Assembly (NCBI RefSeq): GCF_036365525.1
Contig: NC_090411.1
Span: forward strand, 21,405,259-21,469,258
DNA: 64,000 nucleotides
Reading direction: 5' to 3'
Source: Heterodontus francisci
Lineage: Eukaryota
Part shown: piece after piece, positions 7,733-53,082 of the stretch
Layout of the letters: the number at the start of each line of letters is the position of its first letter
How positions within the stretch are numbered: the first letter of the stretch is position 1
Position numbers and translations under genes: made by a program
The notes under the pieces: model-generated
Databases searched by the model: none
The model's input: only the letters and a program-made list of their open reading frames with translations
What the model was told of the DNA's origin: nothing

Positions 7733-8095
7733 GTGTGCACTGTAGTTACCTGGTTTTGCAGCCTGTTGAATCCCAGTCAGTTCGACTGGGAGATACTGTG
7801 ACCCTGGCATGTTTCATTAACAGTCAGCCCTATATTGACTATACCAACGCATACTGGCTGAGGCAACAGGAAGGAAGAGCTCCTGTGGTTCTGGTGTATT
7901 CATTCCTCAACTCCAAGCAAGTCTTCCGCTCTGAACAGATTCCCAACAATGCATCCATGAAAATTACCCTTGATTACCAGAGTTTAAATTTAACCATACA
8001 GAGTGTCAATTCATCTGATGTTGGTCTTTACTTCTGTGCAGGCTGGCGATATGGGGTATTAGCCTTCGGAAATGGAACCAAATTGATCCTGACAG
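7733..8095 (+). CDS. VJ-type Ig receptor exon 2: germline-joined V-J Ig domain (NITR/TCR-like)
   Basis: Acceptor tccctctag; LGDTVTLAC, YWLRQQEGRAP, LTIQSVNSSDVGLYFC, FGNGTKLILT; phase-1 donor gtaaat. No RSS seen. Confidence 0.93.
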
Positions 8096-19436: not shown

Positions 19437-19604
19437 GAGTTGGCTCCTCTGAAGACTCCAGTGTTGCCCCATCTCCGACCAGTAGCTCTCAGTGCCCGGA
19501 CTGCAGCTCACTGGCCTCCGGCTCTATTTATTTCATGGTCCTGACTGCAATTTCGCTGCTGTTGCTGCTGGCGGCGGTGCTGTATGTCAGGCAGCTCAAA
19601 AAAG
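19437..19604 (+). CDS. VJ-type Ig receptor exon 3: stalk and transmembrane
   Basis: Acceptor tttggatttcag, phase 1/1; GVGSSEDSSVAPSPTSSSQCPDCSSLASGSIYFMVLTAISLLLLLAAVLYVRQLKK; donor gtgcgt. Confidence 0.85.
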
Positions 19605-20191
19605 GTGCGTTCTGACTCTCATTGTATTTTTGCTCTTTAAGTAAGTCTGAATGTGTAAATGCAAAGATAGTGCAATGTGATCTGGGAGCTTTTATTGCAA
19701 ATACTAACTCTAAATGGCAATGGTCAAGGAGGCGGAGAAATTGACATCTGCTCTTGTCCTTAAATCTGAGCAGAGAGAGAGAACTGTTTGCAACTTCAGT
19801 CCAGACCACTCCACCCAGGCTGTTTTTTCTTTTAAAACTGTTAAAAACCGATCCTGGTGAACGGTGCAGGGAGAGCGCATGGTCCGGGGGCGATTTTAAC
19901 CTGGGCTCGGCGGAGCGGGGAGCCCGGCGCTGCCGGAAGACGAATTGGGCGGATTTTAACTGCCGGGTTTCCACCGATTGCAATATGATTGGCGGAGCGG
20001 CCGACCCATCGCGTCGACATTCCGCCCGCCCACCTTTTCCGCGCAATTTCCGGCGGCAGCCCCGACCCAGGATATTTAAAGGGTGAATGCGCCGCTGCTT
20101 TCGCCGAATTTCAACGTTGCTTTCTGTTCGCATCTGCTGTGGCGCGGCCCGGGGTAGGGTAGGGGGGTGGTGGCGGTGGTGGGAGGGGGAC

Positions 20192-31660: not shown

Positions 31661-32099
31661 TATGGTACCCTTGTCACAGCCGAAGGTTTCAAGTTTGAAG
31701 AGGAGAAAATGGAAAAGAAAATTATGTTACACAATTCACAGCAAAGTTTCATTTACAGGCATGGAGCTTAGAGCATTTTATACCACTTACTGTCATCATT
31801 GACAGTCAGTCACTGAAGGCAATCAAATGAGACATATATCAAATAATTCAAAGACACGTTCACAGCATATTGTAGCATTTGCACTCATTGCCCACAGCAT
31901 ATTCCCTCCTGCTTCATTCTCCTTTATGTTGTTGGCTTCTAATCCTTTCGTTAACAGTTGAGTTTCAGCGTGACCTTGGCCATCCTGAATGTGGCTTCTG
32001 TTCCCTAGAGTGAGCAAACATATAAATTGACCAGAAGCACAGACCGATCCCAGGTCACACTGACAATCCAGCAGAGAAGATCTGAACGTAAAAAATAGT

Positions 32100-35203: not shown

Positions 35204-35265
35204 TCAAACTACAGGATCTGTGAGTTTCAATGAAGCCAGCTCAAACTGCTGTGCAGCCACATCAC
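35204..35265 (-). CDS. B7/ICOSL-like cytoplasmic exon
   Basis: Acceptor ctcttagcag; GDVAAQQFELASLKLTDPVV*; donor gtaagt 5 nt after the stop. Confidence 0.7.
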
Positions 35266-38200
35266 CTGCTAAGAGGTTTGGAGTACAAATTATTTCTTAT
35301 CTTGCAGTGAACATTTGAAGAAGGTTTCACTGGCATTTCTCAAGCGCAGAGAAGAGGACCAGCTAGGTCAGATCTCCCCCCCCATTTAGCTGCCCTGGGA
35401 TTTCCTGGGGCTTTCCCAAGGAGCGTAACTGGGCCTTGCACTTGCAGCAATGCTGGCGCGACTATAAGGCAGGACGGAAGGGTTCCCAGCCTTCCACCCC
35501 ATTTTCCAATATGTCCCCTTCCTTTAAAGGCCTGCTCGGGTCTGCAAATAAAACCCGACCCAAGCCCAACCCGGCCTGAGTCCTTCCATTTTTTCCCCGT
35601 GTCCGACCCGACATGACCATCAGTTAACAAACCTTCTGTTTTTCATTTTGTTGCTGATCTGCACAAGCTTAAAATAACTATAACAAAACCACCTTTCTAG
35701 TCAAAAAATTACATTAACATCGGAGCTACTTAGCTGTGATGTAGCGTGTCCGACCCAACCCGACACGAACCCGAATGCCGGACCTGGAAGTGCAACCCGA
35801 CCAGACCCGAACCCGACACATGTCGTCGGGTCCCGTCGGGTTCGGGTCGGGTAGCAGGCCTTTACTTTCCTGGGTCCCCCTCAGCAGATGGGAACCTATG
35901 AAAATCTGGGGCAAGGGCCTAGCCTCGGACACTGGGGTCAGCTGGGGTCACTGCAGCAGGTTGAAGACATAAAAGTACTGAAAACATTTTATTTAATGCC
36001 AACAAGATAATTCTCAATACTTGGGGCCATTTTGCTGCTCTTCTCCAGCAGCAGCTGTTAGGCCTCAGTCTTAACAGCCAGGAGCACAGTTGAAATTGTG
36101 AGAGGCACGTAGCTGCACTCATACATTACATAGAATTTATACCACAGAAACAGGCCATTCGGCCCGACTATGTCAGTGTTTGTAAAACCACAGAATGATA
36201 CAGCACAGAAGGAGAACTTTTTTTTATTTTGTCATGGGATGTGGGCATCGCTGGCAAGGCCAGCATTTGTTGCCCATCCCTAATTACCCTTGACAACTTG
36301 CTAGGCCATTTCAGAGGGCAGTTAAGAGTCAACCACATTGCTGTGGGTCTGGAGTCACATGTAGGCCAGACCAGGTAAGGAGAGCAGATTTCCTTCCCTA
36401 CAGGACATTAGTGAACCCAATGGGTTTCTAAATAATCCCACTCCCCTGCTCTTTCCCCATAGCACTGCACAGTTTTTCTCTTCTTGTATTTATCTAATTC
36501 CCCTTTGAAAGTTACTATTTAAACTGCTTCCACTGCCCTTTCAGGCAGTGCTTTCCAGGCCACAACAACTTGCTGTGTGTAAAAAAAAATTCTTCTTGTC
36601 ACCTCTGGTTCTTTTGCCAATCACCTTAAATCTGTGTCCTCAGCCACTGGAAATCATTTCTCTTTATTTATCTCCTTAAACTCATGGGATTAAAGGGTCA
36701 GAAAGCAGAGAGTGCTGTTGAACATTGACTTTTTAGTCTAGAGAGAGGTATACAATGGTGTTCCACAGGGGTCAGTAATAGGACCATTACTCTTTCTGAT
36801 ATAAATGACCTTGGGTATGCAGGACCTTATTTCAAAGTCTGCAGCTGTTTCCCAAATGCTCCCACACTGAAACAAGGTCCACTTGCCCTACTTCATTCCC
36901 AGGACTAGATTCAGCACTCCTTCCTTCCTCATTGAGCTGGAAGCACACTGATCAAGAAAGTTCTTGTATACATTTCAGGAATTCTTTCCCTTCTTTGCCC
37001 TTTACACTGTTACTATCCCAGTCTATATTAGGATAATTGAAGACCTCACTATCACTACTGTAGAGTTCTTGCGTCCTTCTGTAATTTACCTGTACATTTG
37101 TTCCTCTATTTCCTTCCCATTATTCGGTCACCTATACATCCAGAATTGTAATAGTTCCTTTTTGTTCTTTAATCCTAATCCAATAGATTCTATCTTTAAA
37201 CCCTCACTACATCATCTCTTTACAATGCTATATTAGCTTCTTGAACAATACTGCCACTCCCTTCTTTTTTTTCCTTCCTTTGCCCCCTCCCGCTCTATTT
37301 ACTTCATCTTATCCTATCACAATATCCTCCTATTCCTTTCTCCCTTGTGGTGTTTACCTAACTTCCCCTTAAATGCATCTATATTATTTGCCTCAATTAC
37401 TCCATCTGATAGCAAATTCCACATTCCAGCCACTCTCTGGGTAAAGAGGTTTCTCCTGAATTGCTTATTTGATTTATTTATGACTATCCTATACTTATGG
37501 CCCCTGGTTTTGGACCTCCCCACAAGTAGAAACATGCTTGGATGAATGCAAATGAAATTGAGCTTTGCAAATTAAGAAGATCTGAGGAGGTGGTTAATCT
37601 CTTCCTGGACAGCATTTTAGGCAATTGAATCAGCCTCAGTGCTTCTTTGCTTGAGCAGGAAAAGATCAGCCAGAGCTGTGAGAAGAGAGGTGGAATCAGA
37701 ACAGTGAGAGGAGATGCTGAAGAGGACAAGCGAGAGCAGAATGAGAATGGGACAAGTGAGGAGTTGAAGAAGGTGACATGTGGGAACAAGGAGAAGGAGG
37801 ACCATGAAAAGAGAGTGAGTATGGGGCAGTGAGAGTAGAGGTACAATGGGACATATGTGCATAGTTGTATGGTTTGAACTCTTAGAGGAGAGGTGGACTA
37901 GGAATGGAAAGAATTGGAGATGTGTTCACACTAGCGTGGATAAAGAGGATGGGACATGTGGAAACAGACCAGTGTTTCCTGAAAGCTGCATGTGTATACC
38001 ACCACACAGAAACCTGGAATAGATATCAATGGGCGGCACAGTGGCGCAGTGGTTAGCACCGCAGCCTCACAGCTCCAGCGACCCGGGTTCAATTCCGGGT
38101 ACTGCCTGTGTGGAGTTTGCAAATTCTCCCTGTGTCTGTGTGGGTTTCCTCCGGGTGCTCCGGTTTCCTCCCACATGCCAAAGACTTGCAGGTTGATAGG

Positions 38201-41200
38201 TAAATTGACCATTATAAATTGTCCCTAGTATAGGTAGGTGGTAGGGAAATATAGGGATAGGTGGGGATGTGGTAGGAATATGGAATTAGTGTAGGATTAG
38301 TATGGATGGGTGGTTGATGGTCGCCACAGACTCGGTGGGCCGGAGGCCTGTTTCAGTGCTGTATCTCTAAATAAATAAAGTTCTTGCCTCTGATTGCGAT
38401 GCAATAACCTCAGCTGGGAAATGCATGTAAGAACATCAGTTGAGGACACAATCATGATTGGTTGTGAAACTCATATATGATTGTGGCGTGGTGGTAGTGG
38501 TAATGTCACTAAGCTAGTAACCCAGAGGCCCAGGCTAATGCCTTTGGGACATGGGTTCAAATCCCACCACAGACGCTGGAGTTTACATTCAATTAATTAA
38601 TAAATTCAATTAATTGATAAAAATCTGGAATTGAAAGCTAGTCTCAGTAATGGTGCCATGAAACTATCATCGATTGCTGTGGAAACTTTTCTGCTTCACT
38701 AATGTCCTTTAGGAAGAGCATTCTGTCGTCCTTACCTGGTCTGGACTATACACTACTCCAGACCCACAGCAATGTGGTTGACTCTTACCTGCTCTCTGAA
38801 ATGGATGAGCAAGCCATTCAGTTGTCAAGGCAATTAGGGATGGGCAACAAATACTGGCACTGCCAGTGACACCCACATTCCATGAAATAATTTTTTTTTT
38901 TGAAGCTGCATGTCATGAATGGGGCCAGGTATGAGGCAAGCCAGCACCTGTAGGACCTCGTCCAGCAGGACTTTTTTTTAATTTCCAAAATATACTTTAT
39001 TCATAAAAATCTGTAAAAAAAATACAAAACAGTTCCAAACAGCATCAAGTCAAAAAATACAGAGTGCAAAGGAGATCAGTTTCCTTCAATACAGGAGTGA
39101 GTTGCCTCACAACCCTTCCATTTCATTTTTCATACCATGTACATTTTACAGAAAACAAATGTTTTCTGGATCCAGTTCGAGGGGTTTTCCATGGATCCAT
39201 CAGTTCAGCTTGGTGGGGGTACCTTACACAGTGGTCTTTCCCCATTGAGCCTTTGCCGCAGCTGCCCCAAGCTTTAGTGCGTCCCTCAGCACGTAGTCCT
39301 GGACATTGGAATGTGCCAGTCCGCAACACTCGGTCGTGGACAACTCTTTGCACTGGAAGACCAGCAAGTTTCGGGCAGACCAAAGAGCGTCTTTCACCGA
39401 ATTGATAGTCCTCCAGCAGCAGTTGATGTCTATCTCAGTGTGTGTCCCTGGGAACAGCCCGTAGAACACAGACTCCTGTGTTACAGAGCTGCTTGGGATG
39501 AACCTCGACAAAAACCACTGCATCTCTTTCCACACCTGCTTTGCAAAGACACATTCCAGAAGCAGGTGGGCAACCGTCTCTTCCCCACCACAGCCACCTC
39601 GAGGGCATTGTGCAGAGGGGGTGAGACTTCGGGCGTGCAGGAAGGATCTGACGGGGAGGGCTCTTCTCACCACCAGCCAAGCTACATCTTGGTGCTTGTT
39701 TGAAAGTTCTGGTGATGAGACATTCCACCAAATGACTTTGGCAGTCTGCTCGGAGAACCATCCGACAGCATCTGCCATCTCCTTTTCCCGTAGGGCCTTG
39801 AGGACATTCCGTGCAGACCACTGCCTGATGGATTGGTGGTCAATGCTGTTTTTCCGCAGAAACTTTTCCATGAAGGATAGGTGGTACGACACAGTCCAAC
39901 TGGATGGAGCATTCCGCTGCAATGTGACCAGGCCCATCCTTCGCAATACTGGGGACAGATAGAACCTCAGCACGTAGTGACACTTGGAGTTTGCGTACTG
40001 GGGGTCTACACACAGCTTGATGCAGCCGCACACGAAGGTGGTCATCAGGATGAGGGCGATGTTGGGTACATTTTTCCCGCCCTCATCCAGAGGTTTGAAC
40101 ATTGTGTCCCTCCGGACCCGGTCCATTTTGGATCCCCAGATGAAGCGGAAAATGGCTCGGGTGACTGCCACGGCGCAGGAGTGGGGTATGGGCCAGACCT
40201 GCGCCACGTACAGCAACAACGTGAGCGCCTCGCACCTGATGATCAGGTTCTTACTCATAATGGAGAGAGATCGCTGCTCCCACATGCTCAGCTTATTTTG
40301 TACCCTGGCTACTCGCTCCTTCCAGGTTTTGGTGCAGCCCCGGCCCTTCTGAACCATATCCCCAGCACCTTCAGGTAGTCTGACCTAACGGTGAAGGGGA
40401 CAAAGGATCGGTCAGCTCAGTTCCCAAAGAACATGGCCTCGCTCTTGCCATGGTTAACTTTGGCTCCCGAGGCCAGTTCGAACTGGTCGCAGATGCTCGT
40501 CAGTCTGCGCACGGACAGCGGATCCAAGCAGAAGACGGCGACGTCATCCATGTACAGGGAAGTTTTCACCTGAGTGCTTCCACTGTCTGGGATTGTCACC
40601 CCTCTTATGCTCGCATCCTTCCTAATAGACTCAGCAAAGGGTTCAATACAGCAAACAAACAAGACCGGGTAGAGAGGACTGCCCTGTCTGACTCCAGATT
40701 GGATCGGGAAGCTTTCTGATTCCCAACCATTGATTGAGACTGCACTACTGATGTTTGTGTCGAGCAGTTTGATCCAATTGCAGATTCCCTCCCCAAACCC
40801 CATTTTGGAAAGCACGTCCATCATGTAGGTGTGCGATATCCTGTCAAAAGCCTTCTCCTGGTCCAGGCTGATGAGGCAGGTGTCCACTCTCCTGTCCCGT
40901 GCATAGGCAATCGTATCCCTGAGTAGTGCGAGACTATCAGAGATCTTCCTGCCGGGTACAGTACAGTACAGGTCTGATCAGGGTGGATCACCAACTCCAG
41001 AGCAGACTTGACTCGACTGGCTATGACTTTGGACAGAATCTTGTAGTCAACATTAAGCAGTGAGATGGGCCGCCAATTTCTGATTTCTGCCCTCTCCCCC
41101 TTCTGCTTGCATATGAGGGTGATGATGCCTTTCCTCATGGATTCTGACATGCTGCCGGCCAGGAGCATACTCTCGTATACTTCCAGCAGGTCCGGGCCGA

Positions 41201-44200
41201 CCCAGTCCCACAGGGCCGAATACAACTCAACCGGTAAGCCATCGCTTCCGTGAGTTTTACTCGTCTTGAAGGACTTGACGGCCTTTGTCAGCTCGTCCAG
41301 AGTTAGCGGCTTGTCCAGTCTCTCCCTCATGCTGTCATCTAAGACCTCTGTGATAGATGACAGGAAGGACTGGGAAGCTCTGCTGTCTGTGGGCTTCACG
41401 TCAGACAGCCCAGCATAAAAGGATTTGCTGATCCTTAGTATGTCGGACTGCGAAGACATTACCGAGCCATCTTCTTCCTCAGGCTTCTGATAACAGAGCT
41501 CTCTCTGTGTACCTTTTGGAAGAAGTAACGCGAGCACATCTCATCCTGCTCGATGGAGCGGACTCTGGACCGGAAGATGATCTTGGAGGCCTCCGTGGCA
41601 AAGAGCGAGGCCTGCTGGCTCTTCACCTCTTGGAGGTCCTCCTTGACCTCAACCCCCATCGACTGCAACCGGAGCAGATTTTGCATACTTTTCTGGAGTC
41701 GGGACATTTCCCTCTGTCTCTCTCTCGCCCTCTGAACCCCTTTGTGGATAAAGAACCTCTTGGTGTTCTCCTTGATCGCTTCCCAACAGTGAACTGGAGA
41801 CTCAAAGAGGGGTTTCACGGTCCTCCAACCTTTGTAATCCCTTTTGAGTTCCTCAACGTTCTCTGGGGTTAGCAGTGTAGCATTGAGCTTCCATGTCCCC
41901 CTACCAACCCGCTGGTCATCCTGTAAGTGACAGTTGGCCAGTCAGAGGCAATGGTTAGAGAAGAACACCGGCTTGACACCGGTGGATCTGACCGTGACAG
42001 CACGGGACACAAACAGGAAGTCAATCCTGGAACGGGCAGACCCGTCCGATCTTGACCATGTGTCTGCAGGTTTGCTGATGACGTCGTGCAGTTTGGCATC
42101 TTTAACTGTTTCTATTAGGAATCTGGACGTAGCGTCCAGTTTGCTGTCGTCTCTGCCAGATCGTCCAGCTGCAAGGATGATGCAGTTGAAGTCACTGCCT
42201 AGGATGACTGGCCTGGACGTCGCCAGCAGCAGTGGGAGCTGCTGGAAGATGGTCAGCTGCTCACTGCATTGAACCATCGCGTACACCGGAGCGGAGCGTT
42301 GTTGTTCATTACATCTGTTACGAGGAGGTGACCGCCCACCACCTCCTTAACTTCGGAGATGGTGAAGTTACCTCCCAGCAGCAGAATACCCAGGCCAGAG
42401 GAACGGCAATCATTAACCCCTGACCAGATCGATGGCCCGTGGGACCACCATCGCGACCATTGCCTGGAGGTGCTGAGGTGTGGTATTCCACACTCCTGCA
42501 GAAACAGTAGGTCGGCTTTGACCTTGGCGAGGTAATCCAAGGTTGAAACACATCGCGTAGTGGATTTAACGCTACGCACGTTAATTGAAGCAGTCTTTAT
42601 ACCCATTTTTAAGTTAGTTGTTGCTTCCCACACCATTTGTCCTTGCTAGTCCCAGTCCTTCAGTATGGTCCTGCATACCCATAGTATACGCAAGCTGCTT
42701 CATGATCGGTGGGCTCAGAAACCCCTCCTGGTTTTTCATGCAGGGTTTGTTCCGCTGGGGTGACATCGGAGGGGGATTCTCGTAGGCAGCAAGGATTGGG
42801 CTGTCCTCTGCTATTCCCCCTCAAAAACATCACTGCTCCCAGATCTGGAGCACGCCAGACGTGTCGTTGCTCTCGGTGTCCAGCAGGACAGTGGAGTAAA
42901 CCAGAAAAAAACACAGTATTCCAAAAAGCAGAATGCTTTAAAAAGGGATCCTACAGGTGAGACTCCTCTGCATGGTAATGGTGGGGTAGAAGGGTACACT
43001 TTTACATACTGATGTGAGGAACGTTAATGGGATGGAACTTTGCTCCACATTTAGTCCCCAGTGTCAGCGTCAAAATTATACTGAGTGTGGATTAGGTGCA
43101 CTGTAATTCAACCTCTTCTCTGGCCACAAATTACCATGAACCAACCTCAGAAAGCATCCTCCACTAAAACATTCTCACTTCTCACACCCACCACCTGGTA
43201 ACCTCTTAGATTATTAATAGTTGCTGAATGTAAGAGTATTTGCACTTCCCACAGTCAAACTGGGTTGATACAGTTTGATATAGTTTTCCTAAAGGTATTT
43301 ATAACGTGCAGAATGGAAACTCTCCACCCATTAGTCTGGGGAGACTTCAAACCCAGTTGATTAGAGTCAAGGTAGAGTTGTCTAACCTCGCTGGACTATT
43401 TAGTTTTGTATTTAAGAGTCAGTTAAGTAAACTAAAAACGAAAAGTCACTTACCTGTCAGTAAAGACCTGGGGAAATACTTCAGGAAAACGTAAATTGCC
43501 AGTGAAACCACAATGATTAGTGCAACTAAGACCACTGGTGTAACCCATTTGTGACGTAGTTCACTGACAGGGTTCACTTTAGGTAAATCTGTCCAAATAT
43601 AAAAAATTAGTGAGATATCGACATAAAGAAAACATGAATCAGTTCATTTTATCCACTTTTCCGCACAATGTTTGGAGATATGGGGCACGCAGTGAGTAGC
43701 AGAACAGGTTTTACCCTTGCAGTTATAAATTTTTAATATCAAAGTGCGCTGTATCCATGACTAGGAAACGATAGGCTAAGAATTTACAGTCAAAACAACA
43801 AGGGTGGCTAACGGCGCTCACCATTATTCATGCACAAAGCACACAGTAACTTTTGGGAAGGGCAGATGTACAGTTATACATGGAAAACTCTGTGCTATTC
43901 ATTTCATTATACCTCAATCTGATTGGTTACAGAGATACATAGTTACTTGCCCTGTTCACAGGTCCCAGGTGCCCTGGAGAGAGCATCATGCTGTTTCCGT
44001 GGCCCACTCCCAGTAACTAACCCTGCAAAATCTCCTGGAAATTAAATGGGCTATGGCAAGTTTAACCACTCAACAGCTATCTGGTCAGCCATGATCTCAC
44101 TGAGTGGCAGAGCAGGTTCGAGGGGCTAAATGCCTACTCCTGTTCCTATGTACAGTAAATTCTGGCTCCATGAGTTGGGCTACTTAAGTAAATCAATAAT

Positions 44201-47200
44201 ATCTGCACTTACGTCATGCCATCAAAATATCTCCAAATTCTACATACAATGAATAATGTTTTGGAATTCAATAACTATATGGTGTTATGCTGAGCTGTAC
44301 AGAACAAGAAAGTCCCACTGTGTGGTGTGGTACTGGGCTACACAGACCAGGTATCTGATTTGGGACCTTCCCACTTTATTCTATGTTACATCTAAGCCAG
44401 GAAGGTAGTGGAGGGTGCTACAACTGACCTCAATGCTCTTGGATGAGGGAGAAATAGAATCAGGCAGAGTTGCAAATCCTGACCACTAATTAATGATCCG
44501 AGGTATAATGGCTGTTGGGGTGAATGCAGGATTACATTCCCCTGATATCCCATGATGGGTCGAATAATATTGAAACTCACCGTTACAAGCCTCACATGTG
44601 ACGTTCAGGACAGTTGGGTTGCCACTAACCGTGGAACAGAACCTCGACATGTCAGGGATTCAAAAATATGAAAAGATGGCTGTCTATACTTGGGTTTTGT
44701 TTCCAAGGGGAAGGAAGTATTGATTAATTTTACTTACTCCAAAATAAGGTTGCAGTTTTATTCTCCTGGAGCTTGGCATTGTATATGGAGCAGGTAATGG
44801 AGTGTGATGTTGCTTGGATCCAAAGGATGGAGGTAACGTTGCACAATTCCTTTCTAGAACAATTAATGTGATTTACAACAGTCCTGTTGCCATCAAGAAT
44901 GTCTGTAATACTATTAGTCCAATGTACAGTTGGTTCTGGATAGCCACCCCATGAGGAGCAAATCAGCTTCACAAGTTCTCCATGACCCAGGTCTGTCTGC
45001 TTAGGTTCTACAGTCAACACTGGCTCTGTGTAGTGGGCTACAATTGCAAACCAAAAGGAACATAAAGTCCAGAAGTTAGTTGCAGAATTCAAGGGTCAGT
45101 TTCAACCTTACTTAAAGGCAGGATTGCATCACTCCCACAAAATAGAAAGTCATCCCACCAATTGAATGCAACACATTGCACATGTTGTCACCTGAGCAGG
45201 GATCGGAATCCTGACCTTGCATCTTCATTCCAGAGCTCCAGCACATGTTCAGTGCTGACGGAGCCCAAGTTCCAGGTTTTCCAATTGATCACTCCTTTTT
45301 CAGTATCCATTTATTAATTCAAACCAGATGGATCCAAAGCTACACTCACAAATAGATTACAGAGGGGAAAAATAGATACGGTGGTTGGATTAAAGTCCAG
45401 AATAAATGGAACTTAAATACACAGTCTGTGAAGTGGGTGATCCAGTAGTCCTCTGGCTGAAGCTGTATTCTTGAAGTCAGAAGGGACCCTAATGAAGTGT
45501 CCACAATCCAGGACATCGATAGGCTAGCAGAATGGGCAGAGAGGTGGCAGATGGAATTAATACTGACAAGTGTGAAGTGATGCATTTTGGCAGAAAGAAT
45601 AGGGGTCTGGCTGTCAGAAGTCAGAAGTGAGAGAAAGTAACTTGCTGAAACCAGTCGGTAGAAACTGTCAGCAGTGTAAAATGGGCAATAGAGGGAAATG
45701 ACATCAATAGAAATCACTCAGGAGGGAAAATGCAATCATTGAGCCATGACTGGCACAGCCTTCTCTTTTTAATTTATTGGATGTGGGTGCCACTGGTAAG
45801 GCCATCATTTAATGCCCATCCCTAACTGACCTTGAGAAGGTGGTGATGAGCTGCCTTCTTGACAACTGAGTGGCTTGCTGGACAGGGGGCAGTTAAGAGG
45901 CAACCACTTTGCTGTGGGTCTAGAGCCACATATCGGCCAGACTGGGTAAGGATGGCAAATTTCCTTCCCTAATGGACATCAGTGAAACAGATGGGTTTTG
46001 ATGACAATCCAATAGTTACATGGTCACCATTAATGATACTGGCTTTTTAATTCCAGATTTATTTAATTAACTGAATTTAAGATCCCCAGCTGCTGTGGTA
46101 AGATTTGACTGCATGTCTCCAGATAATGAGTCCAGGCTTCCGGATTACTAGTCCACTAACATAACCACTATGCTACTGTTCTCAACATGACAAACTGAAG
46201 GTAACAAATTCGATCGTGTGCCTCCTTAATGTCAGCTGTGGCTTACTGGGTAACACTTTTACCTCTAAGTCAGAAGGTGGTGGGTTCAGGTTCCACCCTA
46301 GAGACCTGAGCACAAACTCCAGGCTAACACTTCAGTGCAGTACTGAGGCAGTGCTGCACTATCAGAGGTGCCATCTTTCAGATGACACTTTAAGCTAAGG
46401 CCCCACATGCCCTCTTAAGAGGACATAAAAAAATCCCAGGACACCTTTTCAAAGAAAGGTAGGTGAGTTATCCCCGTGACCTGGCCAATTTTTATCGTTC
46501 AACCAACATAACTAAAAAACAGATTATCTGGTCATGAGCTCATTGTTGTTTATGGGATCTTGCTGTGCGTACATTGGCTGCAGCATTTCCTACAATACAT
46601 TAAACTTTATTAATAGAGGAAGGAAGGAAGTCATAAAACTGGTTAGGCCTCAGCTGGAGTATTTGTGTTCAATTCTAGGCATCACACGTCAGGAAGGATG
46701 TCAAAGCCTTAGAGAGGATCCAGAAGAGATTTAGATTAGATTAGATTAGAGATACAGCACTGAAACAGGCCCTTCTGCCCACCGAGTCTGTGCCGAACAT
46801 CAACCACCCATTTATACTAATCCTACACTAATCCCATATTCCTACCAAACATCCCCACCTGTCCCTATATTTCCCTACCACCTACCTATACTAGTGACAA
46901 TTTATAATGGCCAATTTACCTATCAACCTGCAAGTCTTTTGGCTTGTGGGAGGAAACCGGAGCACCCGGAGGAAACCCACGCAGACACAGGGAGAACTTG
47001 CAAACTCCACACAGGCAGTACCCGGAATCGAACCCGGGTCCCTGGAGCTGTGAGGCTGCAGTGCTAACCACTGCGCCACTGTGTCGCCCCTACCATTTAC
47101 TAGAATGGTACCAGGGATGAGGGAACTTCAGTTTTGTGGAGAGACTGGAGATTGTTCTCCTCAGAGCAGAGAAGGTTAAGAGGAGATTTGATAGAGGTGT

Positions 47201-50200
47201 TCTTTCCAGTGGCAGAAGGGTCAGTAACCAGAGGGACACTGATTTAAAGTGATTGCATTAAGAACCAGAGGTGACGGAGGATTTTTTTTTTTAACACAGC
47301 AAGTTGTTGTGATCTGGAAAATGCTGCATGAAAGGGTGGTGGAAACAGATTGAAAAGTAACATTTAAAAGAGACTTCATTAACAGCTAAGCTCAGGATGA
47401 TCATCAGATGAACAAAGGGGAAAGTCAGGAGACACTTTTTCCACAGAAGAGATTGCTGGAATATCAGTTTGAACTTTACGTGTACTTTACCACAAGTTAC
47501 ATCAAATGGATAATTTATTATGTGCAATAAATGCTGGCAGCACCCACATTCTGAGAATAAATATTAAAATAAGAATTTGCTTGAGGGGCTAAATGACCTA
47601 CTTTCATTCCTATTGAACACATCAAGGGCCAATAATCAAACCTGGGTTCTGTGATGTAATGTCTAATCTCAGTACCACAGTATGCTGTGCATTATACACC
47701 TCAGCTATTAAGGGTGCAAGTCAATTGCAACTATTAAACAAAATGTAGAAAACCTTAAGCCCATTTCTAAACTCTTGCATAAAACAGAGAAAACCTCCGA
47801 ACCCACTTGTCCCTTCTCCAGTTAGAACAGCAAAGTTTAGGAATGAGGGGATAGAGAAAGCAAAACTTTACCTGATACTTGCAATGTGACCACAATCGAT
47901 AGAACCACAGTGTACCCCAATATTGGCTGTTTCATCTGAATTATGCAAGTATAGTCAGCATCATCACTCACTTGGAGGTCAGACAGGAGGAGGGAAAAGT
48001 TGCCTTGTTTAAATTCTTCTGTAAAAAGTTTTGCTCTGTTGCCATAACTCTGGTTAGTTTGTTCTTGCCCTGAGTAAAAGGCATGGACGAAGTGGTCAGC
48101 CGTCTGCCAGTACACACGAATCTCATCATCAGCACGTTTTCCCACATCGCTATTCACACAAGACAGGAGGGCACTTTCCCCTACAATTCCTGAGACAGCA
48201 AGGGTGGACAGAGGAACTGGGGAACAAAAATAAAGAATATGTGATAGTGCAGTTTGCCGATAATCTGAGACCTGGAAATGGAATAAACAGTGAGGAGGAT
48301 TGTAACAGGCTAATAAAGAGGCATTAGGAATGCTAGCTGTACTTAAAGTTGATAAGTTATCAGGACTGGATGGGATGCATCTGAGGATACCTGGAAGTAA
48401 GAGATATTGCAGAGGCACTGGCCATAGTCTTCCAATCCTCCTTAGACATAGTGGTATTCGCTGATGGTGCCAGAAGACTGGAGAATTGCAAATGTTACAC
48501 CCTTGTTTAAAAAAGGGTGTTTGGATAAATCCAGCACTACAGGCCAGTCAGTATAACCTCAGTGGTAGGAAAGGTTTTAGAAACGATAATCCAGGACAAA
48601 ATTAACAGTCATTTGGATATATGTGGATTAATTAAGGAAACCCAGCACGGATTCGTTAAAGGAAAATCATGTTTAACTAATTTGATTCAGTTTTTTGATG
48701 AGGCAACAGAGAGGGTTAATGAGGGTAATGCAGTTGATGTGATGTACATGGACTTTCAAAAGGCATTTGATAAAGTGCCACACAACAGGCTTGCCAGCAA
48801 AGTTGAAGCCCACAGAATAAAAAGGACAGTGGCAGCATGGATATAAATTTGGCTGAGTGACATGTAACAGAGAGAACTGGCAAATGGTTATTTTTCGTAG
48901 TAGAGGAAGGTATACAGTGATGTTTCCCAGGGATTGCTACTAGAATCATGGTTTTTCTTGGGATATATCAATGACCTAGACTCAGGTGTACAGGGCACAA
49001 TTTAAAAATGCAGATGGCACAAAGCTTGGAAGTATTGTGAACTGTGAGGAGGATAGTGATAGACTTCAAGAGGACATAGAAAGGCAGGTCGAAAGGGTGG
49101 ACTCGTGGCTGATAGCAATCCTAACATATTGACTTTGAAAGAAAGAAAACCCTCAAAGAGTAAATTGGCATCCTGGGGCATGTGGAGTCAATTCCTAACG
49201 TTGAGTTTCATTAGAAGGTTCCAGAAAACCTGAAGCAGCCATGTGACTAGCTGTCCATCTCATGGGAAAGCTGGTTTTGTTTCCTTTGGACAAAGAGACA
49301 AGAAGAAACTGAGATTGCAGCAGCAGAGAAAGTTGTAGGCTTCCCTTTCTCTCTCTCTCTCCCCAGAAAACATCCAGTTTGAAAACCGTCTGCGACTGTG
49401 GACCCTCCAAGCCTATAGACTGCTACAGCCAGCAACTAGGGGAAGAGAGCCAACTACAATTCTGCCTTCAAGAAAACCCTTAGCAAAGTAGGCCAATCTC
49501 AAAGTGCACTTTGACCAGCGAGGACTTCAAGAAATAAAAACAAAAAATGCTGGAAAAACTCAGCAGGTCTGCTAGCATCTGTGGAGAGAGAAGCAGAGTT
49601 AACGTTTCAGGTCAGTGACCATTCATCAGAACTGGCAAAGGTTAGAAATGTAATAGGTTTTAAGCAAATAAAGCGGGGGTGGGGCAAAAGATAACACGAG
49701 GGAAGGTGTTGATAGGACATAGGGTCACAGAGAATAACTGACCAAAAAGTCATGGAGCAAAGGCAAAGGGTGTGTTAATGGTGTGGTGAAAGACAAAGTG
49801 TTAGTGCAGAGAGGGTGTTAAATGACGGAATAATGAACAGCCCTGGCCAAAAGCACAAACATGAAAAAAACAGCGGGCAGGCACATGGTAAAAAAATTGA
49901 ATGACGAAACAAACTAAAATAAAATAAAAAGAAAAAATAAAAATAAAAAGGGGGGGCAGTCATGCTCTGAAATTATTGAACTCAATGTTCAGTCCGGTAG
50001 GCTGTAGCATGCCTCATCAGTAAATGAGGTGCTGTTCCTTGAGCTTGGATTGATGTTCACTGGAACACTGCAGCAATCCCAGCACAGAGATGTGAGCATG
50101 ACAGCAGGGGGGAGTCTTAAAATGGCAAGTAACAGGAAGCTCGAGGTCATGTTTTCAGACTGAGCGAAGGTGTTCCGCAAAGCAGATCTGCGTTTGGTCT

Positions 50201-53082
50201 CCCCACTGTAGAGGAGACTGCATTGTGAGCAGCGAATATAGTATACTGAATTGAAAGAAGTACAAGTAAATCGCTGCTTCACCTGAAAGGAGTGTTTGGG
50301 GCCTTGGATAGTGAGGAGAGAGCAGGTAAAGGGGCAGGTATTACACCTCCTGCGATTGCATGCGAAGGTGCCGTGGGAAGGGGACGAGGTGTCGGGCGCA
50401 ATGGAGGAGTGGACCAGGGTGTCGTGGAGGGAACAATTCCTTCGGAATGCTGACAGGGGAGGGGAGGGGAAGATGCGTTTGGTAGTGGCATCACGCTGGA
50501 CATGACGGAATTGGAGAGGATGATCCTTTGGATGTGGAGGCTGATGGGGTGGAAAGTGAAGACAAGGGGACCCTGTCGCAGTTTTGGGAGGGAGGGGAAG
50601 GGGTGAGGGTAGCAGTGTGGGAAATGGGCCAGACACGGTTGAGGGCCCTGTCAACCACAGAGGACTTCAAGAATACAGCTTCAGCCGGAGGACTACTGGA
50701 TCACCCATGTGGAACCAGTAGAAGCAGACAGAACTTAGTTGAGACTGCAGGGCCAGTTACACAACAATTGTTGAAACCATGGGGTTGGATAAAAAGGGGG
50801 CTGCATGCAGATGGCCTAGAGAAATTGCAGACAGTCCGTGAAAAACAGGATGAAACAGGATGAGATTAGCCACAGTGCTAGCAGACTCAATGTCCTTGCA
50901 CAAACCAAATAAGGAGTTGCTATGGACATGAGATGTGATTAGACCTACAGTTAGACAATGAGGCAATATAAGAAATGCGAGTGCTGACAAGGCTCTTACT
51001 GAACCAAATAACGAATTGTCATTATGCAAGACCCCTATGAGTAAGTAAGAGGGGTGGGTCTTGAAAACAAGATTTAACCCCTGACTGAAACTTGGGACAC
51101 CACAAGAACCCAGGACTAACACTTGCAATAAGCACCCTGAGTCTGGGACACAGAGAACAAAGGGCAGATGCAAGTCCAAGACTATTCACCACGTGTTTTG
51201 ATGGGTAGTATACTGTGCAAGTTGTGAGTGCTTGTACTTGATGATTTACTGTGTGAATAAAACATTTGAGATACCTTTCACCAGTCTGCTGTTGTGAATT
51301 CTTTGGAATAAGAACTGAATAGACAAAACAGAACAACACCCACTTCACAGACTGTGTATTTAAGTCCATTTATTCTGGACTTTAATCCAACCACCATATC
51401 TATTTTTCTCTCTGTCATCTACTTGTGTGTGTGTGATTCCCGTGTGAATGTGTGCATGAATGTGCAGCATATTTTTTAGTATTTTTAAATCGGGGTTAGA
51501 GTGTTAAGTATAATAAACTTACCTATTTCTTGTTTAAACTCAAGAAAACCTGTCCAATTGATTCTTTCACAATCATAGTAAAGGAAAAAGGTAAAACACT
51601 GACAAAGGTGGTAAGCACAACCACTGTTTAAAAGGAAAGAACCTTGTTGTGGTCAAACAAGAGGAAGGGCAAGAGGGGAGCTTGAGACCCCCTCCTCACC
51701 TGACTGTAACAAGTTGCTCTGAACATGGGTAGCTCCCAGCAGTAATCACTACAGTGAGCCTACTGATTTCCCCCAGCACCAGCCCTCCCCCAGACCCACC
51801 CTATTGATTGAGAACTGAAATTGTTGCTTTGACACTTCCGCAGAAGAAAAGGGGGAAAGGAAATAGGTTCAAATTGAGAGCCTAACCAGGCACTCTTCCT
51901 ACCATCTGGTAATTGATGAAGGCTTGGGACAGATTGTTTATTGACAGCTTGGATAAGGGTAGTTGTATTGCAACTATTAAACAAAATGTAGAAAACCTTA
52001 AGCCCATTTCTAAACTCTTGCATAAAACAGAGAAAACCTCCGTACCCACTTGTCCCTTCTCCAGTTAGAACAGCAAAGTTTAGGAATGAGGGGATAGAGA
52101 AAGTAAAACTTTACCTGATACTTGCAATGTGACCACAATCGATAGAACCACAGTGTACCCCAATATTGGCTGTTTCATCTGAATTATGCAAGTATAGTCA
52201 GCATCATCACTCACTTGGAGGTCAGACAGGAGGAGGGAAAAGTTGCCTTGTTTAAATTCTTCTGTAAAAAGTTTTGCTCTGTTGCCATAACTCTGGTTAG
52301 TTTGTTCTTGCCCTGAGTAAAAGGCATGGACGAAGTGGTCAGCCGTCTGCCAGTACACACGAATCTCATCATCAGCACGTTTTCCCACATCGCTATTCAC
52401 ACAAGACAGGAGGGCACTTTCCCCTACAATTCCTGAGACAGCAAGAGTGGACAGAGGAACTGGGGAACAAAAATAAAGAATATGTGATCGTGCTGTTTGC
52501 AGATAATCTGAGACCTGGAAATGGAATAAACAGTGAGGAGGATTGTAACAGGTTAATAGAGAATTCTAGTAGCAATCCCTGGGAATCCTTGCTGTATACC
52601 TTCCTTTACTACGAAAAATAACAATTTACCAGTTCTCTCTGTTTCATGTCACTCAGCCAACTTTGTATCCATGCCTTTTATTCCATGGGCTTCAACTTTG
52701 CTGGCAAGCCTGTTGTGTGGCACTTTATCAAACGCCTTTTGGAAGTCCATGTACATCACATCAACTGCATTACCCTCATCAACCGTCTCTGTTGCCTCAT
52801 TAAAAACTGAATCAGTTAAACATGTTTTGCCTTTAACAAATCCGTGCTGGGTTTCCTTAATTGATCCACATATATCCAAGTGACTGTTAATTTTGTCCTG
52901 GATTATCGTTTCTAAAATCTGTCAAAAAGATTAAAGTGAATCACACCCATTGATCATCCACGAAATATAGGCAATACGAAGGACCTTAGAGTCAGTCGCT
53001 GAGAAATGGACATTTATATTTACCTGTTCCCCAACACAAAAGCAATCCGCATTCAAACAGCCCAGGCACCAGTCTGGCTCCC
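35204..53082 (-). CDS. ICOSLG: B7-family ICOS-ligand-like gene span (leader-V-V-C-TM-cyt); first coding exon unresolved
   Basis: Six phase-compatible exons, listed below. ICOSL-like signatures: VYWQ, LGYTVVLSIVVTLQVSAHYTEPV (cf. LGFQEVLSVEVTLHVAANFSVPV), C-terminal LKLTD, phase-2 split leader. CD80/CD86 orthology is not excluded. Confidence 0.55.
35525..35864. mobile_element. hAT-like MITE
   Basis: Perfect 12-bp TIR TAAAGGCCTGCT, subterminal acccga repeats, degenerate 8-bp TSD ccttcctt / ctttcctg. Confidence 0.75.
36120..37940. mobile_element. Mosaic of CR1, SINE and L2-like fragments
   Basis: ORF 37317-37535 (TRGHKY..FTQRVAGMWN) and other LINE remnants. Confidence 0.65.
38031..38380 (+). 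mobile_element. HE1-type SINE
   Basis: Near-identical to the 15463 copy; (taaa)n tail. Confidence 0.9.
38485..38900 (+). mobile_element. tRNA-derived SINE (related copies at 36220-36430 and 45770-46175, - strand)
   Basis: A and B boxes (tagtggtaa, ggttcaaatccc); shared 3' half. Confidence 0.7.
38972..42877 (-). mobile_element. Tx1-clade LINE: ORF1 end plus frameshifted ORF2 (endonuclease, RT, zinc finger)
   Basis: INVRS..FLQEC, SDFNC, SRIDF, SNHC; NWRPISLLNVDYKILSK, DQEKAFD, GVRQGSP, YMDD; CPRGGCGGEETVAHLLLEC; poly(A); 12-bp TSD GTCCAGCAGGAC (38960-38971, 42878-42889). Confidence 0.93.
43454..43588 (-). CDS. B7/ICOSL-like transmembrane exon
   Basis: Acceptor ttttatatttggacag; LPKVNPVSELRHKWVTPVVLVALIIVVSLAIYVFLKYFPRSLLT; donor gtaagt; phase 1/1. 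Confidence 0.88.
44738..45037 (-). CDS. B7/ICOSL-like IgC exon
   Basis: AHYTEPVL..LICSSWGGYPEPTVHW..NVTSIL..ITCSIYN; 300 nt, phase 1/1, ag/gtaagt. Confidence 0.92.
46230..46600 (+). mobile_element. Deu-domain SINE
   Basis: cagtgcagtactgaggcagtgctgcact..gtgccatctttcagatga core. Confidence 0.7.
46731..47090 (-). mobile_element. HE1-type SINE inside a CR1 fragment
   Basis: Reverse complement of the 15463 copy; (attag)n tail. Confidence 0.9.
47872..48216 (-). CDS. B7/ICOSL-like IgV exon, copy 2
   Basis: GESALLSC..RVYWQ..YGNRAKLF..GNFSLLLSDLQVSDDADYTC..VTLQVS; 345 nt, phase 1/1. Confidence 0.9.
48250..49110 (+). mobile_element. CR1 RT fragment
   Basis: QHGFVKGKSCLTNL..YMDFQKAFDKVPH. Confidence 0.85.
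49534..50659 (-). mobile_element. Penelope-like element 3' part (GIY-YIG endonuclease)
   Basis: GTFACNRRRCNTC..FTCTSFNSVYYIRCSQCSLLYSGETKR; 14-bp TSD GAGGACTTCAAGAA (49520-49533, 50660-50673). Confidence 0.9.
50708..51338 (+). mobile_element. Solo LTR (Gypsy-like)
   Basis: TG..CA termini, 4-bp TSD CCCA, internal TATA-like element and AATAAA. Confidence 0.8.
52115..52459 (-). CDS. B7/ICOSL-like IgV exon, copy 1
   Basis: Identical to 47872-48216 except one synonymous change; splice sites intact. Confidence 0.9.
52563..52918 (-). mobile_element. CR1 fragment, inverted paralog of about 48574-48946
   Basis: QHGFVKGKTCLTD..YMDFQKAFDKVPH; shares unusual variants with the 48.6 kb copy. Confidence 0.85.
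53024..53082 (-). CDS. B7/ICOSL-like signal-peptide exon
   Basis: Acceptor ttttactttgtcctag; GARLVPGLFECGLLLCWGT; phase 2 in and 1 out; donor gtaaat. Confidence 0.7.

What the first reader, a model, noticed from the sequence alone, without database searches (positions are those of the whole stretch)
47724..52562. IgV exon duplication creates a V-V-C B7 ligand with identical V domains
Seen: a block of about 595 bp repeated at an offset of 4243 bp. Both 345-nt exons keep their splice sites and symmetric phase and encode the same protein; there is only one C and one TM exon. Known: B7 proteins are mostly V-C, 4Ig B7-H3 is VCVC and HHLA2 is VCV. Inference: a new V-V-C architecture (bivalent or longer reach), or optional skipping to V-C.
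Basis: partly seen in the sequence, partly recalled or inferred. Interest (0 to 1): 0.75.

Follow-up and report, generated by a model that had tools for sequence, protein, structure and literature searches.

The report
Horn shark B7 with doubled IgV
In the horn shark, the exon for the binding end of a B7-family immune signalling gene is present twice and is likely spliced in twice, giving a longer protein with two identical binding ends that would likely grip its receptor more tightly; it is a real but lineage-level variant that public automatic gene models already show.

Summary
Confirmed. A 596-bp block (47724-48319 / 51967-52562, 8 mismatches) duplicates an intact, phase-symmetric IgV exon of a B7-family gene, matching Heterodontus francisci RefSeq 'CD276 antigen-like'. 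Isoforms X1-X4 there are already modelled V-V-C, X5 V-C. It is not an assembly artefact: short-read DNA contigs branch at both block edges, and depth is 1.76x single copy (1.76 expected if homozygous). Contigs of a run guessed to be RNA fit V1-V2 splicing (V/C depth 2.2), but the junction itself was not seen. New here: the upstream copy looks like a templated insertion joined to an inverted copy of a dead LINE piece. That piece is 7% diverged, against 0.6% around the exon, which hints at an older duplication kept alike by gene conversion. None of 18 other sharks and rays has a V-V-C model. Little skate has V-C-V models of the same gene and reedfish a V-V-C B7-like model, so V-V-C is not unique. 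Orthology (ICOSL or B7-H3) is unresolved and function untested. Verdict: new variant of a known kind, modest interest.

The parts
53024..53082 (-). Leader (signal peptide) exon, 59 nt
   Evidence: tblastn of P0001; splice sites. The first 20 residues of the RefSeq protein were not located in the window.
52563..52923 (-). Inverted copy (A') of the dead LINE piece at 48569-48946, joined directly to the V1 block; 25 mismatches in 361 columns plus 3 deletions (17 gap columns); shares two adjacent in-frame stops with its source
51967..52562 (-). Duplicated block 1 (upstream in gene sense; inferred derived copy)
52115..52459 (-). IgV exon V1, 345 nt, phase 1-1, ACT at the diagnostic Thr codon
48320..51966 (.). 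Spacer between the blocks: LINE fragment (48320 to about 49110, containing piece A at 48569-48946), an LTR-like element (about 49120-51712) with two nested insertions, and 254 nt unique in the window
   Evidence: depth shows the repeats are high-copy. The labels CR1-like and LTR-like are recalled.
47724..48319 (-). Duplicated block 2 (inferred original copy; continuous with the LINE fragment)
47872..48216 (-). IgV exon V2, 345 nt, phase 1-1, ACC at the diagnostic Thr codon
44738..45037 (-). Single IgC exon, 300 nt
43454..43588 (-). Single stalk and transmembrane exon, 135 nt
35207..35270 (-). Short cytoplasmic exon (approximate ends)
31826..32002 (-). Alternative last exon, used by TM-less RefSeq isoform X3 (approximate ends)

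Best explanation
This horn shark B7-family gene carries two intact copies of its IgV exon and likely splices both into most transcripts, giving a V-V-C membrane ligand whose extra, identical V domain is predicted to hang on a short flexible linker and would likely add a second receptor-binding face (more avidity) while the inner V keeps the normal position. Shown: the duplication, intact splice sites and phase, presence in raw DNA data at double depth, one C and one TM exon. Inferred: V1-V2 splicing as the main form (about 0.75); V1 as the derived copy, inserted with an inverted copy of the neighbouring LINE piece by template switching or twin-primed reverse transcription (about 0.65); later homogenisation by gene conversion (about 0.5); a CD28-family receptor and an avidity gain (about 0.45, untested).
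For: DNA run X1: one 586-nt contig begins at the first base of the repeat (47724) and ends at 48309, just before the copies part. Its depth is 17, against 8.35-10.7 for the 7 other listed X1 contigs. The ratio is 1.758; 1.755 is expected for a homozygous collapsed duplication, 1.32 for a heterozygous one and 1 for a false one. Run X5 (guessed RNA, same sample): the V contig is exactly the identical 331 nt (52115-52445) at depth 256.7, C is 118.4 and TM 99.6. A simulated V-V-C graph gives 331/330-nt pieces and V/C of about 1.9; V1-C plus unspliced introns gives the same lengths but 1.03; mutually exclusive use gives a 631-nt piece. The intron next to V has depth of at most 31, too low to carry the roughly 138 units that leave V but do not enter C. 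RefSeq X1-X4 (4 of 5 cluster members) are V-V-C. There are 0 amino-acid changes at 264 sites against 8 changes at 329 neutral sites, Fisher p 0.010. AlphaFold2 gives three Ig domains with a low-confidence linker at 157-162. R74-V-Y76-W77-Q78 is invariant in 13 of 13 aligned elasmobranch proteins and is RVYWQ or RVFWQ in three tetrapod ICOSL proteins. Human ICOS-L binds through C-strand Y51, Y53, Q55, and avidity raised apparent affinity from 722 nM to 10 nM (PMC7545189, passages).
Against: No read or contig across the 52115/48216 junction was seen: the joint table showed 15 rows and cut 1157. The tool warns that contig depth cannot rank parts of a gene, and X5 is only guessed to be RNA. X1 and X5 are one sample, possibly the assembled animal. 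The contig crossing the V1 left edge has 30 letters on the repeat side, one short of the tool's 31-letter rule for a bridge. Against the inside-tract neutral rate the lack of amino-acid change is not significant (p 0.12). The clustering of mismatches that suggests conversion is weak once scanning is allowed for (0.03 at either end, 0.11 anywhere). A close relative (run X8, organism B, 8 differences in 738 exonic nt) shows one 925-nt contig with a single V joined to C. Orthology, and so the receptor, is unresolved. Elongating CD80 lowered costimulation (PMC4654228, abstract). V2 had little alignment cover in the structure prediction.
Confidence: 0.5

Rival explanations
1. Real and spliced in, but nearly neutral: the inner V does the ancestral job, the outer V is a tolerated passenger, and the identity of the copies reflects recent origin or conversion rather than need.
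For: Found in 1 of 19 species examined. The close relative's contig has a single V. No significant constraint against the inside-tract neutral rate (p 0.12). A phase-symmetric exon with copied splice sites is included by default (established splicing logic).
Against: 0 replacements where 6.4 are expected at the whole-block neutral rate. If the event is as old as the 7% LINE divergence, long persistence argues against a pure passenger. V copies recur in models of the same gene in little skate.
Confidence: 0.25
2. The extra V lengthens the ligand and damps signalling: receptor bound at the outer V spans a wider gap and excludes large phosphatases less well, so V-V-C (and the TM-less X3/X4 forms) tunes costimulation down or acts as a decoy.
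For: CD80 elongation reduced costimulation without abolishing CD28 binding (PMC4654228, abstract). 2Ig and 4Ig B7-H3 were reported to have opposite effects (PMC3172298, passages). RefSeq X3 and X4 lack the TM exon.
Against: In the elongated CD80 the binding site is moved outward (recalled design; only the abstract was read), whereas here V2 keeps the ancestral position above C. The predicted linker is flexible. Receptor unknown.
Confidence: 0.12
3. Both exons are intact but used one at a time, or V1 or V2 is mostly skipped, so the main protein remains V-C and the V-V-C models are minor.
For: RefSeq X5 is V-C. V skipping occurs in ray isoforms of this gene (P0029, P0030: leader-C-TM). The junction was not observed, and V1-C plus unspliced introns reproduces the contig lengths.
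Against: V/C depth is 2.17 against about 1 expected. The intron depth is too low. 4 of 5 RefSeq isoforms carry both exons.
Confidence: 0.11
4. Assembly artefact: two haplotypes placed in tandem (false duplication).
For: Very high identity of the copies (8 mismatches in 596). No long read spanning both copies was laid.
Against: The block has 1.76x the depth of the single-copy contigs that hold the C, TM and leader exons. The V1-specific flank has full depth (10). Contigs branch at both edges. The flanks of the two copies are unrelated.
Confidence: 0.02

Closest known systems
H. francisci RefSeq 'CD276 antigen-like' XP_067875579-86
   Same: This gene. V exon 100% identical; X1-X4 V-V-C, X5 V-C.
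   Different: Automatic models only. The origin of the duplication, its read support and the gene's orthology are not given in what was retrieved.
Mammalian 4Ig B7-H3 (CD276)
   Same: B7-family gene lengthened by tandem exon duplication, near-identical repeats (V1C1 and V2C2 96%), short and long isoforms by splicing (PMC3172298, passages). Top or near-top sequence and fold match.
   Different: The unit there is V+C (VCVC) and is shared by many mammals. Here only V is copied, in one species of 19 examined. The C-strand motif differs (human B7-H3 NLIWQ, here RVYWQ). Orthology not shown.
ICOS ligand (CD275) and CD80/CD86
   Same: V-C-TM ancestral form. The profile of the elasmobranch family scores human ICOSL 111.6 bits against 108.2 for 2Ig B7-H3 and 79.2 for CD80. 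C-strand YWQ motif shared.
   Different: Single V. The tree does not join the shark clade to tetrapod ICOSL (deep nodes 50/46). The single protein scores B7-H3 higher (89.8 against 78.1 bits).
Little skate models XP_055522047 and XP_055487388 (same elasmobranch gene clade)
   Same: Second near-identical V in the same gene family (112 of 112 and 110 of 112 residues).
   Different: V-C-V order. On small scaffolds (222 kb and 76 kb) beside a V-C model on another, so they may be fused neighbours or assembly artefacts; not checked.
Reedfish B7-like model UniRef A0A8C4XDV2 ('CD276 antigen homolog')
   Same: V-V-C-TM architecture.
   Different: Separate clade; V domains 93 of 108 identical; unverified gene model.
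CD96 and HHLA2
   Same: CD96 has two IgV and one IgC2 domain (PMC13600086, passage). HHLA2 is a three-domain B7 (V-C-V; recalled, not checked).
   Different: CD96 is a receptor outside the B7 ligands; in both proteins the V domains are divergent (recalled).

Membership tests
B7 family | N-terminal IgV followed by a B7-type IgC domain | tested here: met
   Pfam V-set E 2.5e-12; C2-set_3 E 2.1e-10 and CD80-like C2-set_2 E 1.4e-07.
B7 family | Type I membrane protein: leader, single TM, short tail | tested here: met
   Leader, TM and cytoplasmic exons mapped; predicted TM helix 382-408.
B7 family | Closest solved relatives are B7 members rather than butyrophilins or other Ig proteins | tested here: met
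   CD276, ICOSL, PD-L1 and CD80 rank above butyrophilins; CD276, ICOSL and CD80 lead the profile search; the top 4 fold matches are B7-H3 or ICOS-L entries.
B7 family | Binds a CD28-family (or other co-signalling) receptor on lymphocytes | not testable with these tools
   No receptor identified; only the conserved C-strand motif is suggestive.
ICOSL orthologue | Groups with tetrapod ICOSL in a tree | tested here: inconclusive
   The elasmobranch clade is solid (100/99, 14 rows) but its position among 55 rows is unsupported (50/46).
ICOSL orthologue | Receptor-contact residues on strand C (Y51, Y53, Q55 in human) | tested here: inconclusive
   Y76 and Q78 fit Y53 and Q55 by spacing around the conserved Trp; R74 replaces Y51. 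The motif also occurs in other fish B7-like proteins.
ICOSL orthologue | Conserved synteny | not tested
   No whole genome was held; the only neighbour seen in the window is an unnamed V-J receptor gene.
B7-H3 (CD276) orthologue | Groups with amniote CD276 in a tree | tested here: inconclusive
   Not resolved. No named amniote CD276 was among the rows. Another H. francisci gene (XP_067874477) scores higher to human B7-H3 (97.8 bits) than this one (89.8 bits).
4Ig B7-H3-type duplication | Tandem duplication of the V+C exon pair | tested here: not met
   The C exon occurs once in the window; only V is duplicated.

The most novel reading that the evidence does not exclude
The V exon was duplicated long ago (7% neutral divergence), has been kept identical by gene conversion plus selection, and yields a dominant bivalent V-V-C ligand whose length and valence are set by splicing and by copy-number change between the direct repeats. 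With the V-C-V forms in skate, V-domain doubling would be a recurrent way for elasmobranchs to tune one co-signalling ligand: a natural test of avidity against ligand size in the immune synapse.
Probability: 0.17. Interest if true: 0.58.

Novelty: new variant of a known kind. Interest (0 to 1): 0.36.

Why it matters
If V-V-C is the main form, the horn shark offers a natural pair (V-C against V-V-C, identical binding domains) to test whether adding a second binding site outweighs the cost of a longer ligand, a question so far studied with engineered elongation. It is also a compact example of how an Ig domain is added: a phase-symmetric exon copied with its splice sites by a local templated insertion beside a LINE. 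The limits are real: one species, already in automatic annotation, receptor unknown, and Ig exon duplication is common in this family.

Tried and rejected
No whole genome was held, so synteny and other copies could not be searched directly. The run search listed no holder on record as RNA; X5 and X8 are guessed RNA. Run X12 (another organism, DNA) gave no cover of the exons, only repeats; this is no evidence either way. A simple head-to-tail tandem duplication was rejected: homology stops at 596 nt and the spacer has no second copy. Independent insertion of the two LINE pieces was judged unlikely because they share two adjacent in-frame stops that another copy in the window lacks; no family consensus was available. 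A second, decayed C or TM exon was looked for and not found. The tree did not settle orthology. The neighbouring V-J exon found no named homologue (leads only). Paper searches for a description of this gene or of a V-V-C B7 found none in the held library, which lacks most subscription journals. The 2012 B7 evolution paper (PMC3709836) was not held. PMC12227049, PMC12151841 and PMC11599192 (passages) said nothing on this gene. No complex prediction was run because no receptor is known. No divergence rate was obtained (listing only), so no date is given. Earlier scan notes: none near this place; one note on a different shark B7 gene did not bear on the reading.

Full report
1. Observation. The repeat is there: 47724-48319 and 51967-52562, 596 nt, offset 4243, 8 mismatches, no gaps. 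Each block holds a 345-nt minus-strand exon with identical acceptor and donor and phase 1 at both ends. The one exonic difference is a synonymous Thr codon, ACT in the upstream copy V1 and ACC in V2. The exon is a V-set domain; the next exon downstream is a CD80-like C2-set domain. Leader, C and TM exons occur once each in the window.

2. Identity. The V exon is 100% identical to Heterodontus francisci RefSeq 'CD276 antigen-like'. Of its 5 distinct isoforms, X1 and X2 are V-V-C-TM, X3 and X4 are V-V-C without TM, and X5 is V-C-TM. So the architecture already stands in automatic annotation. The gene belongs to a well supported elasmobranch clade (100/99), but a tree of 55 V+C units does not place that clade with ICOSL or with other B7 groups (deep nodes 50/46). 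The single protein scores B7-H3 above ICOSL (89.8 against 78.1 bits); the family profile reverses this narrowly (111.6 against 108.2). The C-strand motif RVYWQ is invariant in 13 of 13 aligned proteins and resembles tetrapod ICOSL more than human B7-H3, but it also occurs in other fish B7-like proteins. I call it ICOSL/B7-H3-like, orthology open.

3. Is the duplication real? In DNA run X1 one contig starts at the first base of the repeat and stops at 48309, just before the copies diverge for good, as expected where two different flanks meet one shared sequence. Its depth is 17; the 7 other X1 contigs listed, which include those over the TM, C and leader exons, have 8.35-10.7. The ratio is 1.758. 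A homozygous duplication collapsed with its allele-specific words predicts 1.755, a heterozygous one 1.32, a false duplication 1. The run may come from the assembled animal, so this tests the assembly, not the population.

4. Are both exons used? No junction read was seen; the joint table was cut (15 rows shown, 1157 not). The indirect evidence is consistent. In run X5 (guessed RNA, same sample) the V contig is exactly the 331 identical bases between the diagnostic site and the exon end, at depth 256.7; C has 118.4 and TM 99.6. I simulated five transcript sets. A single V gives a 704-nt piece and mutually exclusive use a 631-nt piece, neither of which was observed. V-V-C (pure, or 80% mixed with V-C) and V1-C plus unspliced introns give 331 and 330 nt as observed, but V/C depth is 1.7-1.9 for the first and 1.03 for the second; observed 2.17. 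The flanking intron has depth of at most 31, too little to carry the surplus. The tool warns that contig depth cannot rank parts of a gene, so I rate V-V-C as the main form at about 0.75. Against generality: in run X8 (organism B, 8 differences in 738 exonic nt) one 925-nt contig has a single V joined to C, with 322 non-V bases before it. Contigs show presence, not absence.

5. How it arose. V1 is not part of a head-to-tail repeat. In gene sense the segment 52923-51967 consists of an inverted copy of 48569-48946 (a dead LINE piece) joined to the forward copy of 48319-47724, with the 249 nt between them missing. The two LINE pieces share two adjacent in-frame stops that another copy in the window lacks, so they most likely descend from one insertion. 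V2 is continuous with the LINE, so V1 is the likely derived copy. The geometry fits template switching or twin-primed reverse transcription (both recalled; seen only as search listings PMC8421209 and 10.1101/2021.12.20.472354). There is no poly-A tail and only a 3-nt match (TGT) at the two ends, which favours DNA repair slightly. Divergence is uneven: 25 of 361 in the inverted piece and 5 of 74 in the adjoining end of the block (both about 7%), but 3 of 522 across the exon and its near introns. At 7%, 17.7 changes are expected at the roughly 255 neutral sites there and 3 are seen (P 2e-5), so selection on the protein alone cannot explain it. Either one old event was followed by gene conversion over the exon, or the LINE inversion is older and the V copy recent. 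The clustering of the 8 mismatches that would decide this is weak after allowing for scanning (0.03-0.11), and 1 difference between V1 and V2 against 5 to organism B is not significant (0.11). I put conversion at about even odds.

6. How it likely works. AlphaFold2 (34-row alignment that covers mostly V1 and C) predicts three Ig domains, with residues 157-162 between V1 and V2 at pLDDT below 50, which suggests a short flexible link. V2 keeps the ancestral place above C; V1 adds an identical face further out. ICOS is a disulfide-linked dimer, and avidity raised apparent affinity for ICOS-L about 70-fold (PMC7545189, passages), so a second site could matter. Elongated CD80 costimulates less well (PMC4654228, abstract), so the outer site could instead damp signalling. 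No amino-acid change has accumulated: significant against the whole-block neutral rate (p 0.010), not against the inside-tract rate (p 0.12). I favour added avidity with preserved inner geometry, with near-neutrality as the main rival. None of this is tested.

7. Comparison and novelty. Models of this gene were retrieved for 18 other sharks and rays; none is V-V-C, 17 show only single-V forms, and little skate also has V-C-V models with near-identical V copies on small scaffolds. Among 145 more distant relatives from the exhaustive search, my V and C profiles read 1 as V-V-C-TM, 3 as V-V-C without TM and 2 as V-V-V-C (one with TM). The V-V-C-TM one is a reedfish 'CD276 antigen homolog' model with V domains 93 of 108 identical. 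4Ig B7-H3 is the known precedent for exon duplication in the family (PMC3172298, passages), and CD96 for V-V-C among Ig proteins (PMC13600086, passage). Three paper searches found no description of this case in the held library, which lacks most subscription journals; the main B7 evolution paper was not held. No supplements were read.

8. Verdict. A real, homozygous, probably expressed IgV exon duplication in a horn shark B7-family gene, with an informative breakpoint structure. It is a new variant of a known kind, already visible in RefSeq. Interest 0.36; about 0.58 if old, conversion-maintained and functionally bivalent.

Noticed in passing
window 7735-8095 (+) and about 19437-19605 (+): A second Ig gene facing the B7 gene: one exon encoding a V domain with a J-like end (FGNGTKL), and a Ser/Pro-rich stalk plus TM exon. 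No named homologue at near length; leads are NITR-like or CD8A-like clusters and antibody light chains. It could help synteny.
   Followed up: partly
window about 49120-51712: Nested insertions between the V copies: an element of about 1.1 kb with a 13-nt target duplication (49521-49533 / 50661-50673), and a TG...CA element (50708-51338) with a CCCA duplication, both inside an LTR-like element. A related copy lacking the inner element lies inverted at 45342-45478.
   Followed up: partly
P0037, P0045, P0047 (Leucoraja erinacea): V-C-V models of the same gene with identical or near-identical V domains, on small scaffolds; real duplication or artefact not checked.
   Followed up: partly
P0029, P0030, P0032, P0036, P0038, P0039 (rays): RefSeq isoforms of the orthologue that skip the V exon or use only part of it, so V-exon splicing is variable in this gene family.
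   Followed up: no
window 44738 and 32002-31826; P0013, P0014: RefSeq isoforms X3 and X4 skip the TM exon, predicting soluble V-V-C forms; run X5 also holds a contig running from the C exon into its intron.
   Followed up: no
window about 39000-43000 (-): A roughly 4-kb non-LTR retroelement with endonuclease and reverse transcriptase remnants and an A-rich end, in the intron after the TM exon; family label not tested.
   Followed up: no
P0075 (XP_067874477): A second H. francisci B7-like gene on another contig scores higher to human B7-H3 than this gene does, so the RefSeq name 'CD276 antigen-like' should not be read as orthology.
   Followed up: partly
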